In this document: piece by piece, positions 6,001 to 63,000 of the stretch
Layout: each line of letters begins with the position of its first letter
Position numbering within the stretch: position 1 is the first letter of the stretch
Assembly (NCBI GenBank): GCA_965235115.1
Contig: OZ249451.1
Coordinates: 20,336,001-20,400,000 of the forward strand
Reading direction: 5' to 3'
DNA length: 64,000 nucleotides
Source of the DNA: Laetmonice hystrix
Lineage: Eukaryota
Made by a program: the position numbers

Positions 6001-9000
6001 TTTTCTCTCCGGNNNNNNNNNNNNNNNNNNNNNNNNNNNNNNNNNNNNNNNNNNNNNNNNNNNNNNNNNNNNNNNNNNNNNNNNNNNNNNNNNNNNNNNN
6101 NNNNNNNNNNNNNNNNNNNNNNNNNNNNNNNNNNNNNNNNNNNNNNNNNNNNNNNNNNNNNNNNNGGACCTGTAAGCCCCCGTGCATGGTGTTTTGTTTG
6201 TTGTACACACCCTTCGCCACTACGGTTACCCTGTAGATCCGAATTTGTGTGTCGATGTAAGCGACAAATTCGTATCTGCGGTGTATAGTGTAGTGTGCGA
6301 CCCTGCAGCGTTTTCTCATCGTTTTCTGCCTGTTATTAACTGTTATTGGCCAAACTATATCACTAGCTGGATGATTTCTACATTAATGTTGGTTGTAATT
6401 CGTTTTGTAAAGGGGGTATGTATCTCTTTATATATTATAGGCCAACGTAGATGGGGTTTCTGTGGTTTTTCCAATGCTTCCCCCACCCTCTTCCCTGGCT
6501 ACGTGAGTGGGGCAACGATTGAATGCCATGGCATGATTGTGACATTTGGAAATATTTCTCGTTTGCCCTGTCGGTGTCTGGTACCCGATCTAACGGGGTT
6601 GGGGTGTTTTGTTTGACACAACAAGTGACAAAGTTATATTTTGTTTGGCATAGATCTAAAAAATGTTATTCATTGCATGACATTCACAATGCCTCCAACG
6701 TTCTGTTTACTTACTTTATCAAATATTCCCCGATGCATCTGTATTATTTCGGATTCGCGTTTGATTTATAGCGATCGTTTCTTTTTTCTCCCATGCGTCC
6801 TTTTTTTGTTATCGTTAGTGTCCGAAATATTGGACGCTTGCCTGTTGGACTACAGACTTCCGCTCCGGAGAGCCCCCCTGTGGTAAATATAGGTATAAAC
6901 CCCCAATATAGCTAGGCCATAGGGGTGACTGGGTGCTTTGTTTGACTAAACATTTGGATACTTCTTGGGAATCCATTGATGTTCATTCAGTAGAGAGGCC
7001 AATTCTCATTTTAATGAGGCTACGTGCCTATCGTTGCCAACGTACCATTAGCTTAATGATATTCTAAAGTTAGATATTGAACAGCCAGTCTCCCTGTGGG
7101 AGAAAACAGTGTCGACTGGGCGGAGGAGATCACCAGTTCACACGCTGCAGTCAGGGAAGCTTCGTAGTACAGATCAGCAGACATTTTCTTCCTCTCCTGG
7201 TCGATCTGTAAAGATAAGAAAGAGAAAGAAATGAAATTAGAACGAAAGTTTCAAATGTTCGTTCCTTCTACATGTATCGGTTTGTGAGACCGACCCGCAG
7301 CGCTCCAACCGTCGACCGCGCAAAGCACGCAGTTGTACCAGAAACACTCACCAGGTGGTCCACATGTCGACACGCCACCTGGTGTAAACTGAGCGAACTG
7401 CAATTTGTTGTCGGCACAGCGTAGCCACCGCTCGTACGCGGAGCGATGGGAGGGCAAGCGATTATAAAGGGACTTATTATAAAGGGTCAACGTTTGATAA
7501 CTTCACGGCTAACTCTACAAGCTCCCCTGCTTTGCTGTGCTGTTACATCTCATTTCATGGGATCGATCAAAGCGGGCAAATCCGGAAACCGAAACCCTGA
7601 GGCCGAAGTGGGCCAGCTGATTCGGAACATGTTTTTCATTCGTTCCCCTTCCCCCCTTCCTGCCCCAGAAACGAATACATCAATATCTCATCCCAGGGAT
7701 ACACACAGTGGGGGGCTGCCGACTCGCTGCCCGGTGCCGAAATGTTAGGGCATCTCATATCTATACAGGGTCTATCTTTAGCTGAGAGATGACCCAAGCA
7801 AATATGTCAGTTTCGTTCCCACCACAGGCCAAGTGATAAGACCCTCTACCTCCTCGGTTGCAGACATCGATCGTTTTTTAACGTCTGCTCCCAAACTTTA
7901 CCGCGATCAAAGTTTTAAGTAACTTCGACGCCATAGTTAAGATTAGATTAGACTTTGATAGTTTGAGGTAGAATGGAAAGTTTAGTTTGAGGGTCCCACT
8001 GGGTAGTCTCCCCCACCCCCGTCCCTGAGTGACGTCGGTCAGAGGGCGTCTTCTTCAAGTTATGAGAAAGAACGAGGTTTGCGAGTGATTTCAGCGTTCC
8101 AAAGTTTACAAACAGTCCACTATCTGTCTCATCTTAAAAGGTGGATGAGCCCCGTGTGTGACGTCGATAGATTGCATCAGTGATCTCCGAGATATTTTCT
8201 CAGAGATTTGTGGGAGCACCATGTCTCCCGATCGCTGAACTCCTCCTACGATCACTGAACTCCTCCTATCTGTGTTGTTTAATTCCTGCAGTCGTAACGT
8301 CGCGATCGGAGACTGGCTAACGTCAACCGCCGCGGCTCGCGATCTCAGCTGACCTACATGGTTCAAGATCAAAGCGGGTGGGGTTTGAGGGGGTGGGGGG
8401 TGGAGAAGCCGAGAGAGAGGGGCTTTTAAAGTGCTCCCAAACGTTCCGTCAAGAGATGGGGCAACACAGCCCTTCAATCGTCCACGGATCGATTGATCCA
8501 ACCCTTCACTCATCAATCAATGTATTCATTCAACCATAGACGTATTCATTCATTCATTCATTCATCCATTCATTCATTCTCTGACGAAAGATGAAACCAT
8601 CACAATATTACAACCGAACAATATGCAATCAATCTGGACTTTTTCTGCTACTAGAAGAGCGTTATCTATGATGATGGCCCGTCTATGGTTATGAATTACG
8701 ATAAGGACTGCTGTAATGAGATCAGAGGCGTTGAATGAGTTTGAAATCAGTTGTTTGGACGGTCGTGTCCGAGTTGGCAGGTATTGTCATTACTGGCGGC
8801 GTCTTGTGTTAACTGATCACCAACATCTACTTCACTACAACTGGCGTCTGACAGCGGACTGTCATAATCCCAGAACTCCTCCTCATGCGCGTCTCAGAGA
8901 TAATGAGCAGGGAGATAAGAACCAAAGCGTCTTTTGTCCATCATTGTTTTTTTTAATTTTTTAATTATCGTGGTGTTTTGTTTGGTTTTGAGATGGAAAT

Positions 9001-9002
9001 AG

Positions 9003-60000: not shown

Positions 60001-63000
60001 ATTTTGTCGTGCCACGTAAGCGAAAATCTGCCGCGTCGACTGAGTGGTCCATCACGCGACTGGTTCTTAAAATTCTCATCGCTTGCTTTCCTTATTTGGC
60101 AATTAGTCTCGCCTATTAAAGTCGCCATATTAACCATTGATATAATGATGGCTCCCGCCTACTCAGACATAATTAGCCATTCATGATTCAATTTACCACA
60201 ACATCCAAATCGTCGACAGAACAATGAAGATTGTTCCGAAGTTCTTTTTCTCTCGACATCTACGAGAGAAGAAAAATAACGTTGTCATGGAGATGTGATA
60301 CTGATGTTTGTGTAGATACGAATATTAGTTGGAGCGAATGTCATGTGATGTACGCGCATCCGACACATGCCTTCCTGGTAAAATATGTGTCAATAATGGA
60401 GATGCATTCCGTGTGTTGATATATATATGCAGACATATACAAATCAGAAGTTATATGAATATTCATCGGGAACCACCTCCCCTCTGTATAAATAGATGCT
60501 ACATGTCGATGTGATTGACGTTATCTATAGATGAATCAAGGTAGTTGGGTTAGAAATAACGTAGGTTCCGTGAACAGAGGGACCTATATATTATGACCTA
60601 CATTTCCTCCTGGGGTGGGGAGAGCTTAGATCGTTGGCCTGATCAATCCTTACTGTATGGAACAGTTCTATGGTTCTTGTGATGATGAAGACGTCAGACT
60701 ATAGGCTGTGCTCTCAGGGAGTGCTTCACCTTGTATCTGGGATAGGGATGTATCCAGGATACAAACCAACCACTGAGGCCCAGTTCACGTGGGAGGGGGT
60801 CATTAGGGCCATGGTGTGAATTAGCCTGAGTGGTTGTGGGGTCCAGCCACCCCCCCCCCCCCGCCCCCCGCCCTCGGACCCTCAACCCGGCCGTGTCAAT
60901 CGGCCGAGCGCCCCATTTTGGAAATGATCTTCGATTTGGGGCAGTAAATGGAGTCGAATCCATTCGCCTAATTATGGGCGAATAACTAAGTAATGGTAGT
61001 GAACAACGGTCATTAGGCGAGTTGGTAATGGTATGGAAGGGTGGGAGGAAGGGTGGGGTAAAAGGACCGTTTGTCTATCCACCCCCCACCCCCCACCCCC
61101 GCCAGCCACTCCGCTCAGATCAGGCGCAATATTTGCCCAGACTGAGCGCAGGTTCATGGCAGCCTCGCTTTAACTTCTGAAGACACCATTATTGACAATC
61201 AATGGATTTACTTTACACTGTGTGTGGCGTGTGAAGACACGGGACTCTGGGGAGGGGTGGGGGTGGGGGTGATTGTAACAGGCCAGGTCTAGAGACACTG
61301 CACGGCCGATCGCGGAGGGAGACAGAGAGAGGGGCCATGGAGGGGGGTGTTGAGGTCAGGAGGGACGCAGGGCAGGCCGGGGAAAGCCGTCAGACCTGCT
61401 CTGAAGTGGCCGTCGCAATTTCCACAAAAAGGACTGCCTGTGATGTTTTGATCAAAGCGAGTAATATGAAGGTTCTGGCCTCCGAGGGAGAGCCCAACTG
61501 CTGTCATATGGACCAGTCCCTCGTGACGTGTCGACTGGCAGCCCTCACAAACTCCACCAATTTACATGTCAGGTTTTTTCGGTCTGTTTTCAACCAAATA
61601 TGACATACAGCAGAGGGATAGGGGCCGTTTTTATAACAGTAAATTGTTCTGTTTTGTTAGGCTACTCTATTTATATTCTTTATGTGAGGATATCCTATTT
61701 ATAATAAATTCTTTTAATGTGTATTTGTGTCGACATAATATGAGCTACATTATATTAAGATACCACATGGATGAATGAATCAATGAAAATATTAAGAATA
61801 AATAAATAAATATTTTAATATGGGCAAACCTTTATAAGACCTGAATGGGTATTAAAATGGCCATATTGGGTGTCCATGCTTTCCGCCTGATAATCCTTAC
61901 GAGGTGGGATTATACATGTCTATTGACTGGATGATCTCCAGTTGTAGCAGGGCGCATACCCGGTCAGCCGATAATCTGTGACTGACACCAGCCTGGGGCG
62001 TGGCGGGGGTGTTCAAGGTATCACCCCTGATCAAAGGAAGACTGTTCAAACCCTGAGTTCACACCAAAACGGTTGAACGCATTCACTAGCCTCCTGTGCT
62101 TTTGACACGGACGGTCGCCACTGTGCTTAGAAAATATCTTTACAAAGAGATGTAAACATAGGGTAAAAAATCCACCGGAAAAAAATGAATGGGGGGGGGG
62201 GAGGATAAACCCGCTTTGACGTGAAAAAAAATCCGTTCTTGAACTTTTGAAGGAGGACAATGAAATGAAAGTGGTAGGAGAAGTCTATGGTCTCGCGAGA
62301 AATGACGTGGACTTTGACCGGACAGAGATCTCGCTGGCTCTCTCCAGTTTCATAACAGATTCAAGGTGGTGACGATTTGATTAACATATGAATGGCAGTG
62401 ACAGCAGGTAACTTCACCTTGGGTCATAGCGGTCAATGAGACGGTAATGAATAACCCCGACACCTCGGCTACAAGCCGTGGTGACAATGGCCGGCCCCAA
62501 GGGGGGCCGTCGCGTGAATAAATATCATCCATTTTGGAAGTCAAAATAATAAAGTGTTTTATCTACTCAGCCGGCGTCGCGATATTATGACACAGGATTG
62601 GCTGACGTGTAAAAAAGAGGCATGAGCGCGTAACAGGTTTTAGCGATGAGATAATACCCTAAATACAACCACCTCCCCACCTGGCCTTTCCCTACCGGTC
62701 TATAGATACATTACAGTATATGTATACTATACTGGTTCCAAGTCTCGCGCAGTCTCGTTTAACCCGAGATGACGGACGGTGATAGAAAGACGCTATGTCC
62801 TGCGCCGCCGCCAGGGGGCCGGCCGTCCTTCGGCTGCACACGGCCTATTAATTTTCAAATCACAGCAACAAATTGGGAAATGCTGCTTTCAGGTGGTCCT
62901 CTCGAGTAACACAATTACTGCCATGACCGCCACCTGAGCTTGTTCTCAGCTGCGGTAATTTGTAGTGGACCATGTTACATGGAAATATGGGGGGGGGGGG

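What the first reader, a model, noticed from the sequence alone, without database searches (positions are those of the whole stretch)
7372..62821. Mostly co-oriented CTCF motif array across the miR-10-Hox4 interval, with an orientation flip at the Hox3 end
Seen: the strong cores at 22528, 43458 and 53069 and the weaker ones at 7372 and 24270 are all on the - strand, while the strong core at 62808 is on the + strand. Two - sites bracket Hox4 (0.9 kb upstream of the ATG, 4.2 kb downstream of the stop). Established: CTCF sites partition vertebrate and Drosophila Hox clusters and loop extrusion is orientation dependent. Inference: a CTCF-organised Hox sub-domain in an invertebrate lineage where such architecture is poorly documented, with 53069(-)/62808(+) forming a divergent, boundary-like pair between Hox4 and the presumed Hox3.
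[Added by the scan's program, not by the reader: the finding's places include an assembly gap (unread letters, written N; its length is only estimated) at 13866 to 14166. Whether the letters on both sides are continuous or in frame is not known: test that first.]
Basis: partly seen in the sequence, partly recalled or inferred. Interest (0 to 1): 0.65.

Follow-up and report, generated by a model that had tools for sequence, protein, structure and literature searches.

The report
CTCF-like motifs around a spiralian Hox4
A few good matches to the CTCF binding motif lie around a Hox4 gene in a spiralian invertebrate, but their number and shared direction are only weakly beyond chance and do not show a vertebrate-style chromatin boundary.

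Summary
All six cores are at the stated coordinates and strands. Hox4/Dfd (two exons, + strand, 44377-48868) and mir-10 (6220-6292) are confirmed. No second homeobox is in the window.

Enrichment is marginal:
- The 14-mer consensus with at most 1 mismatch gives 3 hits against 0.65-1.14 expected (P 0.03-0.11).
- With at most 2 mismatches there are 10 hits against 9.7-15.6 expected, and a reversed decoy also gives 10.
- Only 43458 and 53069, which flank Hox4, stand out: 2 hits against 0.13-0.23 expected.

Orientation of the six named sites (5 of 6 on the - strand) gives p = 0.22. A wider bias (16 of the top 20 on -) has p about 0.03 at a cut-off chosen after the fact. It is partly shared by decoys.

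The "flip" rests on one site, 62808, the weakest of the four strong ones.

Papers read here find no CTCF orientation signature in protostomes, echinoderms or amphioxus. In an annelid Hox cluster, CTCF motifs were mainly at promoters with no directional arrangement.

Most likely reading: a few isolated, possibly real sites that act locally regardless of orientation. Occupancy, conservation and the species' CTCF gene could not be tested.

The parts
6220..6292 (+). mir-10 precursor hairpin, the left landmark of the interval. An N run ends 55 bases upstream of it.
   Evidence: Rfam mir-10, 44.4 bits (below the gathering score of 47.5), E 1.2e-7, full model length; hairpin -39.8 kcal/mol, z -7.1, 0 of 200 shuffles fold as well.
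7372..7385 (-). Weak CTCF-like core (2 mismatches). It is one arm of a palindrome (arms 7349-7358 and 7375-7384), and a 3-mismatch copy lies on the + strand.
   Evidence: score 12.4, rank 6.
13866..14166 (.). Assembly gap of 301 N inside the interval. It was not filled. Continuity and true length are unknown.
   Evidence: N runs. (flanks read; unique sequence). (no overlap between the flanks; only a 9-base chance match). (no tandem array at its edges). The ORFs listed across it run through N only.
22528..22541 (-). Strong CTCF-like core (1 mismatch), intergenic, 22 kb upstream of Hox4.
   Evidence: score 15.7, rank 3.
24270..24283 (-). CTCF-like core without the 5' CC (2 mismatches). It is a full match to the shorter fly-type core AGRKGGCGC.
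   Evidence: score 10.9, rank 8.
41646..41724 (-). Second mir-10-like hairpin, antisense to Hox4, 2.65 kb upstream of its ATG. It is not part of the motif claim but lies inside the interval.
   Evidence: mir-10, 31.8 bits, E 0.0011.: -34.8 kcal/mol, z -5.2 on the - strand; z -3.3 on the + strand.
43458..43471 (-). Best CTCF-like core (0 mismatches; also matches the fly-type core), 906 bp upstream of the Hox4 ATG. It is a promoter-proximal candidate.
   Evidence: score 20.8, rank 1; matrix p<=1e-6.
44377..44929 (+). Hox4/Dfd exon 1: ATG to a GTAAGT donor, with the YPWM hexapeptide near its end.
   Evidence: 58 relatives at E<=1e-3, named ones being Dfd/Hox4 (phoronid 37%, nemertean 34% identity); 10 longer relatives, arthropod Hox4/Dfd.
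48528..48868 (+). Hox4/Dfd exon 2 with the homeodomain, from an AG acceptor to the stop codon. The phases of the two exons fit (1+2).
   Evidence: Pfam Homeodomain, E 2.7e-24; 92% identity over 78 residues to the phoronid Dfd protein P0020.
53069..53082 (-). Second-best CTCF-like core (1 mismatch, at position 13), 4.2 kb downstream of the Hox4 stop.
   Evidence: score 17.9, rank 2; matrix p<=1e-6.
62808..62821 (+). The only strong + strand core (2 mismatches), in a GC-rich stretch. It overlaps a weaker - strand hit at 62805.
   Evidence: score 13.2, rank 4.

Best explanation
The interval is the intergenic and intronic DNA of a spiralian Hox cluster between mir-10 and the region downstream of Hox4. 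It holds a few isolated, single-copy sequences that fit the CTCF core motif.

The two best sites are 43458, about 0.9 kb upstream of the Hox4 start codon, and 53069, 4.2 kb downstream of the stop. These are the most likely real CTCF binding sites. If bound, they would act as invertebrate CTCF is described to act: locally, near promoters or as orientation-independent insulators around one transcription unit. They would not be expected to act as oriented anchors of extruded loops.

The rest of the 'array', its shared direction and the flip at 62808 are best read as chance plus local strand composition.

Shown here: the sequences, their scores, and the gene and miRNA landmarks. Inferred: binding, and any effect on Hox4.
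For: - Sites and landmarks are present.
- The two top sites exceed chance: 2 hits at matrix p<=1e-6 against 0.13-0.23 expected, and 4 of 300 Markov-3 simulations reach 2. This holds across 5 of 5 matrix settings.
- Four cores share CCNNNAGGGGGC against 0 for the reversed decoy.
- No dispersed repeat carries the sites. The +-200 bp flanks match only G/C low-complexity runs elsewhere in the window.
- 43458 and 24270 also match the shorter fly-type core with its terminal C, the form a 2026 preprint ties to invertebrate orthologues.
[quoted passage not shown] It lies mostly at promoters, is shown in its Hox cluster, and has no directional arrangement. Promoter-proximal binding is typical of invertebrate orthologues.
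- No orientation or loop signature is seen in protostomes, echinoderms or amphioxus.
Against: - Overall enrichment is weak. At most 1 mismatch gives P 0.03-0.11. There is no enrichment at 2 or fewer mismatches or at matrix p<=1e-4. The fly-type core gives 3 hits against 1.17 expected, with 11 of 100 shuffles reaching 3.
- The window is very rich in G/C runs (241 runs of 5 or more), which favours GGGGG-containing words.
- The Hox4 transcription start is unknown, so 'promoter-proximal' is inferred from the ATG.
- Occupancy, conservation and the presence of a CTCF gene in this species were not testable.
- A - strand bias among the top 20 hits (16 to 4; p about 0.03) is not fully explained by short-range composition. 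Markov models trained on the + strand predict about 50:50. Calling all co-orientation chance may therefore be too strong.
Confidence: 0.55

Rival explanations
1. All six cores are chance matches in a G-run-rich sequence and none binds CTCF. The pattern has no function.
For: - At most 2 mismatches: 10 hits against 9.7-15.6 expected, and the reversed decoy also gives 10.
- Matrix p<=1e-4: 20 hits against 23.5 expected under Markov-3.
- AGGGGGC occurs 17 times, and 241 G/C runs of 5 or more are present.
- 25 of 600 permuted decoys reach the same 4th-best score.
- A search with an open frame through 43458 found 0 relatives. This is uninformative rather than negative.
Against: - Two hits at p<=1e-6 against 0.13-0.23 expected.
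- 4 of 17 AGGGGGC words have CC at the right offset against about 1.1 expected (P 0.021, post hoc).
- CTCF motifs are common in open chromatin of another spiralian, including its Hox cluster.
Confidence: 0.28
2. One reading: a co-oriented CTCF array organises a Hox sub-domain by orientation-dependent loop extrusion, and 53069(-)/62808(+) form a divergent boundary between Hox4 and Hox3.
For: - 5 of 6 named sites and 16 of the top 20 matrix hits are on the - strand. The grid-adjusted p is 0.026. 19 of 600 permuted decoys are as lopsided.
- Markov models trained on the + strand predict about 50:50.
- CCCTC-like motifs are enriched at domain borders in a squid, as reported in two reviews.
Against: - The six named sites alone give p 0.22.
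- The cut-off at 20 hits was chosen after seeing the data.
- At 3 or fewer mismatches the reversed decoy shows a similar bias (38+/55- against 41+/63-). The bias is concentrated in 48-64 kb (5+/21-), where the + strand is C-rich.
- The flip rests on one site, with weaker - hits between it and 53069.
- No orientation, loop or insulation signature of CTCF motifs is seen in protostomes, echinoderms or amphioxus.
- The loop-extrusion barrier function is placed in the vertebrate protein.
- Annelid boundaries carry YY1-like motifs, and the Hox cluster forms a single domain.
- Hox3 is not in the window.
Confidence: 0.05
3. The cores are bound by something other than CTCF. This could be another GC-box or C2H2 zinc-finger protein, or, for 7372, E-box factors. 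Alternatively they are part of G/C-tract-associated elements.
For: - 3 of 4 strong cores lie within 200 bp of a 10-16 base G or C tract (P 0.025, post hoc).
- 7372 is a palindrome with two inverted CAGGTG words. That CAGGTG is an E-box is recalled, not tested.
- An annelid has a species-specific boundary motif unlike known profiles.
Against: - The four strong cores fit the 12-base CTCF core at all 7 of the positions I recall as invariant in the CTCF logo (CCNNNAGNNGGC).
- The G/C tracts have no shared flanks.
- A YY1-like word is not enriched: 3 hits against 1.95 expected.
Confidence: 0.12

Closest known systems
[quoted passage not shown]
   Same: A spiralian Hox cluster with scattered single CTCF-consensus motifs, some near promoters. 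The motif is the same as the vertebrate core.
   Different: There the motifs were chosen by open chromatin (ATAC-seq), and a CTCF orthologue was found in the genome. Here only sequence is available. That paper saw no directional arrangement, whereas here 5 of 6 named sites share a strand (not significant).
CTCF boundaries inside vertebrate Hox clusters (Narendra 2015, cited; mouse HoxD allelic series PMC8559674, search listing only)
   Same: CTCF-consensus sites lie between and beside Hox genes near Hox4-5. The core sequence is the same.
   Different: In vertebrates the sites are conserved, occupied and act as oriented barriers to cohesin. Papers read here place that barrier ability in the vertebrate protein. 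None of occupancy, conservation or insulation is shown here.
Drosophila CTCF at Hox (bithorax) boundaries (Mohan 2007, cited; described)
   Same: This is a protostome in which CTCF use is largely restricted to a few loci such as Hox, and loss of CTCF gives Hox misregulation. The short core AGRKGGCGC is matched by 43458 and 24270.
   Different: Fly CTCF works with partners and without motif-orientation dependence. The fly motif lacks the 5' CC part, which the four strong cores here have.
Cluster-wide Hox domain with a distal enhancer in annelids, a nemertean and a chiton (bioRxiv 10.64898/2026.05.18.725834; abstract and sections 5 and 10 seen)
   Same: It covers the same superclade, and the nearest named Dfd relatives of this window are from a phoronid and nemerteans. 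It addresses how a spiralian Hox cluster folds.
   Different: It reports a single domain over the whole cluster and YY1-like motifs at boundaries and anchors. The held text never mentions CTCF (0 occurrences). A YY1-like word is not enriched in this window.

Membership tests
CTCF binding site (bilaterian core motif) | Sequence match to the core consensus | tested here: met
   Against the recalled consensus CCASYAGRKGGCRS: 43458 has 0 mismatches, 22528 and 53069 have 1, and 62808, 24270 and 7372 have 2. JASPAR and FIMO were not available. I used my own soft matrix instead.
CTCF binding site (bilaterian core motif) | More sites than composition predicts | tested here: inconclusive
   At most 1 mismatch: P 0.03-0.11. 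Matrix p<=1e-6: 2 hits against 0.13-0.23 expected. No excess at 2 or fewer mismatches or at p<=1e-4.
CTCF binding site (bilaterian core motif) | Occupancy by CTCF, and a CTCF gene in the species | not testable with these tools
   Only this 64-kb window is held. No animal genome, ChIP or ATAC data can be reached.
CTCF binding site (bilaterian core motif) | Conservation of the site in related species | not testable with these tools
   No animal DNA collection was open. An indirect try used a 72-residue open frame through 43458 against 1.84 billion representative proteins and gave 0 hits. That result says nothing either way.
Vertebrate-type oriented loop anchor or Hox boundary | Orientation pattern (co-oriented array, divergent pair) beyond chance | tested here: inconclusive
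   Six named sites: 5 of 6, p 0.22. Top 20: 16 to 4, grid-adjusted p 0.026, and 19 of 600 permuted decoys are as lopsided. The reversed decoy shows a similar bias at 3 or fewer mismatches. The divergent pair rests on one + site.
Vertebrate-type oriented loop anchor or Hox boundary | Insulation or loops at the sites, and a CTCF N-terminus able to halt cohesin | not testable with these tools
   No contact maps and no CTCF protein of this species are available. The literature reports these features absent in the protostomes examined.
Hox4 / Deformed gene | Homeodomain, YPWM hexapeptide, Dfd/Hox4 as nearest relatives, and mir-10 on its 5' side | tested here: met
   Pfam Homeodomain, E 2.7e-24. YPWM found. 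Named relatives are Dfd/Hox4. mir-10 lies 38 kb upstream on the same strand. The exons were searched one by one and the joined protein was not made.
mir-10 microRNA | Match to the Rfam family model and a stable hairpin | tested here: inconclusive
   44.4 bits is below the curated 47.5 bits, but E is 1.2e-7 over the full model and the hairpin has z -7.1. It is very likely mir-10, but formally under the family cut-off.

The most novel reading that the evidence does not exclude
CTCF-like motifs from strong to moderate (16 of the 20 best) point the same way, antisense to Hox transcription, across at least 55 kb of a spiralian Hox cluster. This could reflect an orientation-dependent role of CTCF in a protostome. 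That would mean directional CTCF function at Hox clusters is older than the vertebrates, against the current reading of the comparative data.
Probability: 0.06. Interest if true: 0.7.

Novelty: new member of a known kind. Interest (0 to 1): 0.2.

Why it matters
If the two sites flanking Hox4 are bound, they add one more spiralian example to the old idea of a CTCF-Hox link dating to the bilaterian ancestor (Heger 2012, known here only through citations).

That would be a modest addition. CTCF motifs in a spiralian Hox cluster are already shown for Dimorphilus, and the comparative papers read here already argue that orientation-dependent looping is a chordate or vertebrate gain.

Only a real, genome-wide orientation rule in this lineage would change current views, and the window alone cannot show that.

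Tried and rejected
I replaced them with analytic expectations and faster simulations.
- Dispersed-repeat origin of the sites is rejected. The flanks match only G/C low-complexity runs.
- CpG-island context is rejected. 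CpG observed/expected at the six sites is 0.57-1.04 against a window median of 0.82. GC is 0.41-0.54 against a 90th percentile of 0.55.
- Short-range strand composition as the cause of the - bias is not supported by Markov-3 and Markov-5 models trained on the + strand (48-52% on the - strand). The reversed decoy and the regional split do point to local composition for the weak hits.
- Other coding genes: 10 of the 37 ORFs of at least 110 aa were scanned against Pfam and gave 0 families. There is no second homeobox or hexapeptide.
- Conservation through spurious ORF predictions gave 0 hits and is uninformative.
- A YY1-like word as an alternative boundary motif gives 3 hits against 1.95 expected.
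- Heger 2012 (PMC3491479) is not held.
- Species: the closest relatives of exon 1 (79% and 60% identity) are unnamed records and I did not trace them. The nearest named relatives are a phoronid and nemerteans, so the phylum is not settled.
- The gaps were not filled, and the two exons were not joined.

Full report
**The gap first**

The window has three N runs: 5668-5808, 6013-6165 and 13866-14166. The flagged gap (13866-14166) lies in non-coding DNA.
- Its flanks are unique sequence.
- No tandem array lies at its edges.
- The flanks do not overlap each other; the only match is a 9-base chance match.
- The ORFs listed across it run through N only, so there is no reading frame to test.

Continuity and true length stay unknown. 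This affects only the distance between 7372 and 22528 and the possibility of hidden motif copies. I did not fill any N run.

**What the locus is**

- The window has one homeobox, on the + strand.
- Exon 1 runs from the ATG at 44377 to a GTAAGT donor after 44929 and ends with a YPWM hexapeptide.
- Exon 2 runs from an AG acceptor at 48528 to the stop at 48868. It carries a Pfam Homeodomain (E 2.7e-24).
- The phases of the two exons fit. I searched the exons one by one and left out the joined protein.
- Exon 1 finds 58 relatives among proteins of 101-322 residues. The named ones are Dfd/Hox4, from a phoronid (37% identity) and nemerteans (34% and 32%). It finds 10 longer relatives, which are arthropod Hox4/Dfd.
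- The closest relatives (79% and 60% identity) are unnamed records that I did not trace.
- Exon 2 is 92% identical over 78 residues to the phoronid Dfd.

The window is therefore from a spiralian. The phylum is not settled.

mir-10 is at 6220-6292 on the + strand. It scores 44.4 bits, under the 47.5-bit family cut-off, with E 1.2e-7. The hairpin has z -7.1.

No other coding gene was found. 10 of the 37 ORFs of at least 110 aa were scanned and gave 0 Pfam families. Hox3 is not in the window.

**The observation**

The stated distances to the Hox4 ATG and stop are right.

Three caveats apply.
- 7372 is one arm of a palindrome (7349-7358 / 7375-7384), so its strand label is soft.
- 62808 overlaps a weaker - strand hit at 62805.

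**Is it more than chance?**

The consensus CCASYAGRKGGCRS is recalled. JASPAR and FIMO were not available.

| Test | Observed | Expected or control |
|---|---|---|
| Consensus, at most 1 mismatch | 3 | 0.90 (8 of 100 shuffles reach 3) |
| Same, Markov orders 0-5 | 3 | 0.65-1.14 (P 0.028-0.108) |
| Consensus, at most 2 mismatches | 10 | 9.7-15.6; reversed decoy also 10 |
| Post-hoc pattern CCNNNAGGGGGC | 4 | 0.61 (0 of 100 shuffles); reversed decoy 0 |
| AGGGGGC words with CC at -5 | 4 of 17 | about 1.1 (P 0.021, post hoc) |
| My soft matrix, p<=1e-6 | 2 (43458, 53069) | 0.13 order 0; 0.23 Markov-3 (4 of 300 simulations) |
| My soft matrix, p<=1e-5 | 5 | 1.27 order 0; 2.78 Markov-3 (42 of 300) |
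| My soft matrix, p<=1e-4 | 20 | 12.7 order 0; 23.5 Markov-3 (239 of 300) |
| 4th-best score against column-permuted decoys | real motif | 25 of 600 decoys as good |
| Fly-type core AGRKGGCGC | 3 | 1.17 (11 of 100 shuffles) |

The window is unusually rich in G/C runs (241 runs of 5 or more), so the conditional test on AGGGGGC words is the fairer control. The matrix counts hold across five matrix settings.

In sum, two to four sites are better than composition predicts, at roughly the 1-10% level. The looser "array" is not enriched.

**Orientation**

- The six named sites are 5 to 1 on the - strand (p 0.22). The four strong ones are 3 to 1 (p 0.63).
- Among the best 20 matrix hits, 16 are on the - strand (p 0.012). 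Adjusted for seven cut-offs this is p 0.026.
- 19 of 600 permuted decoys are as lopsided in either direction.
- Markov models trained on the + strand predict 48-52% on the - strand. This result goes against my reading and I report it as such.
- Against it as a CTCF signal: the cut-off was chosen after seeing the data. At 3 or fewer mismatches the reversed decoy is almost as biased (38+/55- against 41+/63-). The bias sits mostly in 48-64 kb (5+/21-), where the + strand is C-rich.
- There is no clean flip. Weaker - hits lie between 53069 and 62808, and weaker + hits lie at 15894, 34876 and 41053.

**Context of the sites**

- They are single copy in the window.
- They are not in CpG islands.
- 43458 lies about 0.9 kb upstream of the Hox4 ATG.
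- 53069 and 62808 both differ from the consensus at position 13. 43458 and 24270 match the short fly-type core.
- Three of the four strong sites lie within 200 bp of a 10-16 base G or C tract (P 0.025, post hoc).

**Literature**

- Two October 2026 preprints bear directly on the interpretation. For 10.64898/2026.10.19.760054 I saw the abstract, section 5 and passages. For 10.64898/2026.10.19.759930 I saw the abstract, the introduction and section 7.
  - They report a shared core motif across Bilateria.
  - They find no spacing, loop or insulation signature of motif orientation in protostomes, echinoderms or amphioxus.
  - They place the loop-extrusion barrier function in the vertebrate protein.
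  - They find more promoter-proximal binding for invertebrate orthologues.
- An echinoderm study finds no orientation pattern at boundaries (PMC13317027; passages).
[quoted passage not shown] A Hox-cluster snapshot shows no clear directional arrangement (PMC7854359; passages).
- A May 2026 preprint (10.64898/2026.05.18.725834; abstract and sections 5 and 10) finds a cluster-wide Hox domain in annelids, a nemertean and a chiton, and none in a phoronid, a brachiopod or a chaetognath. It finds YY1-like motifs at boundaries. Its held text has 0 mentions of CTCF.
- Reviews note CCCTC-like motifs at squid domain borders without directionality (PMC10658181 and PMC10658182; passages).
- Heger 2012 is not held and is known here only through citations. 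Supplements were closed.

**Verdict**

The sequences are real and the locus is correctly read. A couple of the sites, above all the pair flanking Hox4, may well be true CTCF sites that act locally. The co-oriented array, the flip and the boundary inference are not established by the sequence, and they run against the current comparative evidence.

This is an ordinary finding of a known kind, with a small residual strand bias worth a genome-wide check.

Noticed in passing
whole window; list of 37 tracts (for example 1339-1352, 29086-29100, 41786-41800, 56871-56886): G or C homopolymer runs have a two-peaked length distribution: 4:331, 5:147, 6:53, 7:3, 8:0, 9:1, then 37 runs of 10-16 bases (mode 13). 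That is about one per 1.7 kb, on both strands. A/T runs decay smoothly, with only 5 runs of 10 or more. The tracts share no flanking sequence beyond G-richness. Whether this is a distinct biological class of G-tracts or a sequencing or assembly artefact is unknown.
   Followed up: partly
41646-41724, - strand: A second mir-10-like hairpin lies 2.65 kb upstream of the Hox4 ATG and antisense to it. It scores 31.8 bits against Rfam mir-10 (E 0.0011) and has z -5.2 on the - strand and -3.3 on the + strand. It lies on the Hox5 side of Hox4, unlike arthropod mir-993, which sits between Hox3 and Dfd (PMC4862073; passages). No tool tested a link to mir-993.
   Followed up: partly
7349-7384: A 10-bp perfect palindrome with a 16-base spacer. 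Each arm holds a CAGGTG word (E-box-like; that name is recalled).
   Followed up: no
43284-43295, 52976-52987, 62989-63002: Three of the four strong CTCF-like cores lie within 200 bp of a long G or C tract. The permutation P is 0.025, post hoc.
   Followed up: partly
32474-34092; 12330-13065; 30166-30578; 57038-57784; 58196-58517; 63606-63831: Large tandem arrays lie in the Hox intergenic DNA: 34 bp x 47 copies, 104 bp x 7, 15 bp x 28, 30 bp x 26, 56 bp x 4 and 36 bp x 6. The 56-58 kb stretch has a GC skew of -0.36.
   Followed up: no
5668-5808 and 6013-6165: Two further N runs bracket a (TC)n-rich stretch (5809-6010) just upstream of mir-10. The flanks of the first share a 31-base TC-rich match. 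They were not filled.
   Followed up: no
61026-61111: A G-rich hairpin-like stretch gives weak matches to several unrelated miRNA families, all far below their cut-offs (for example mir-1224 at 32.4 bits against 105). These are probably low-complexity matches.
   Followed up: no
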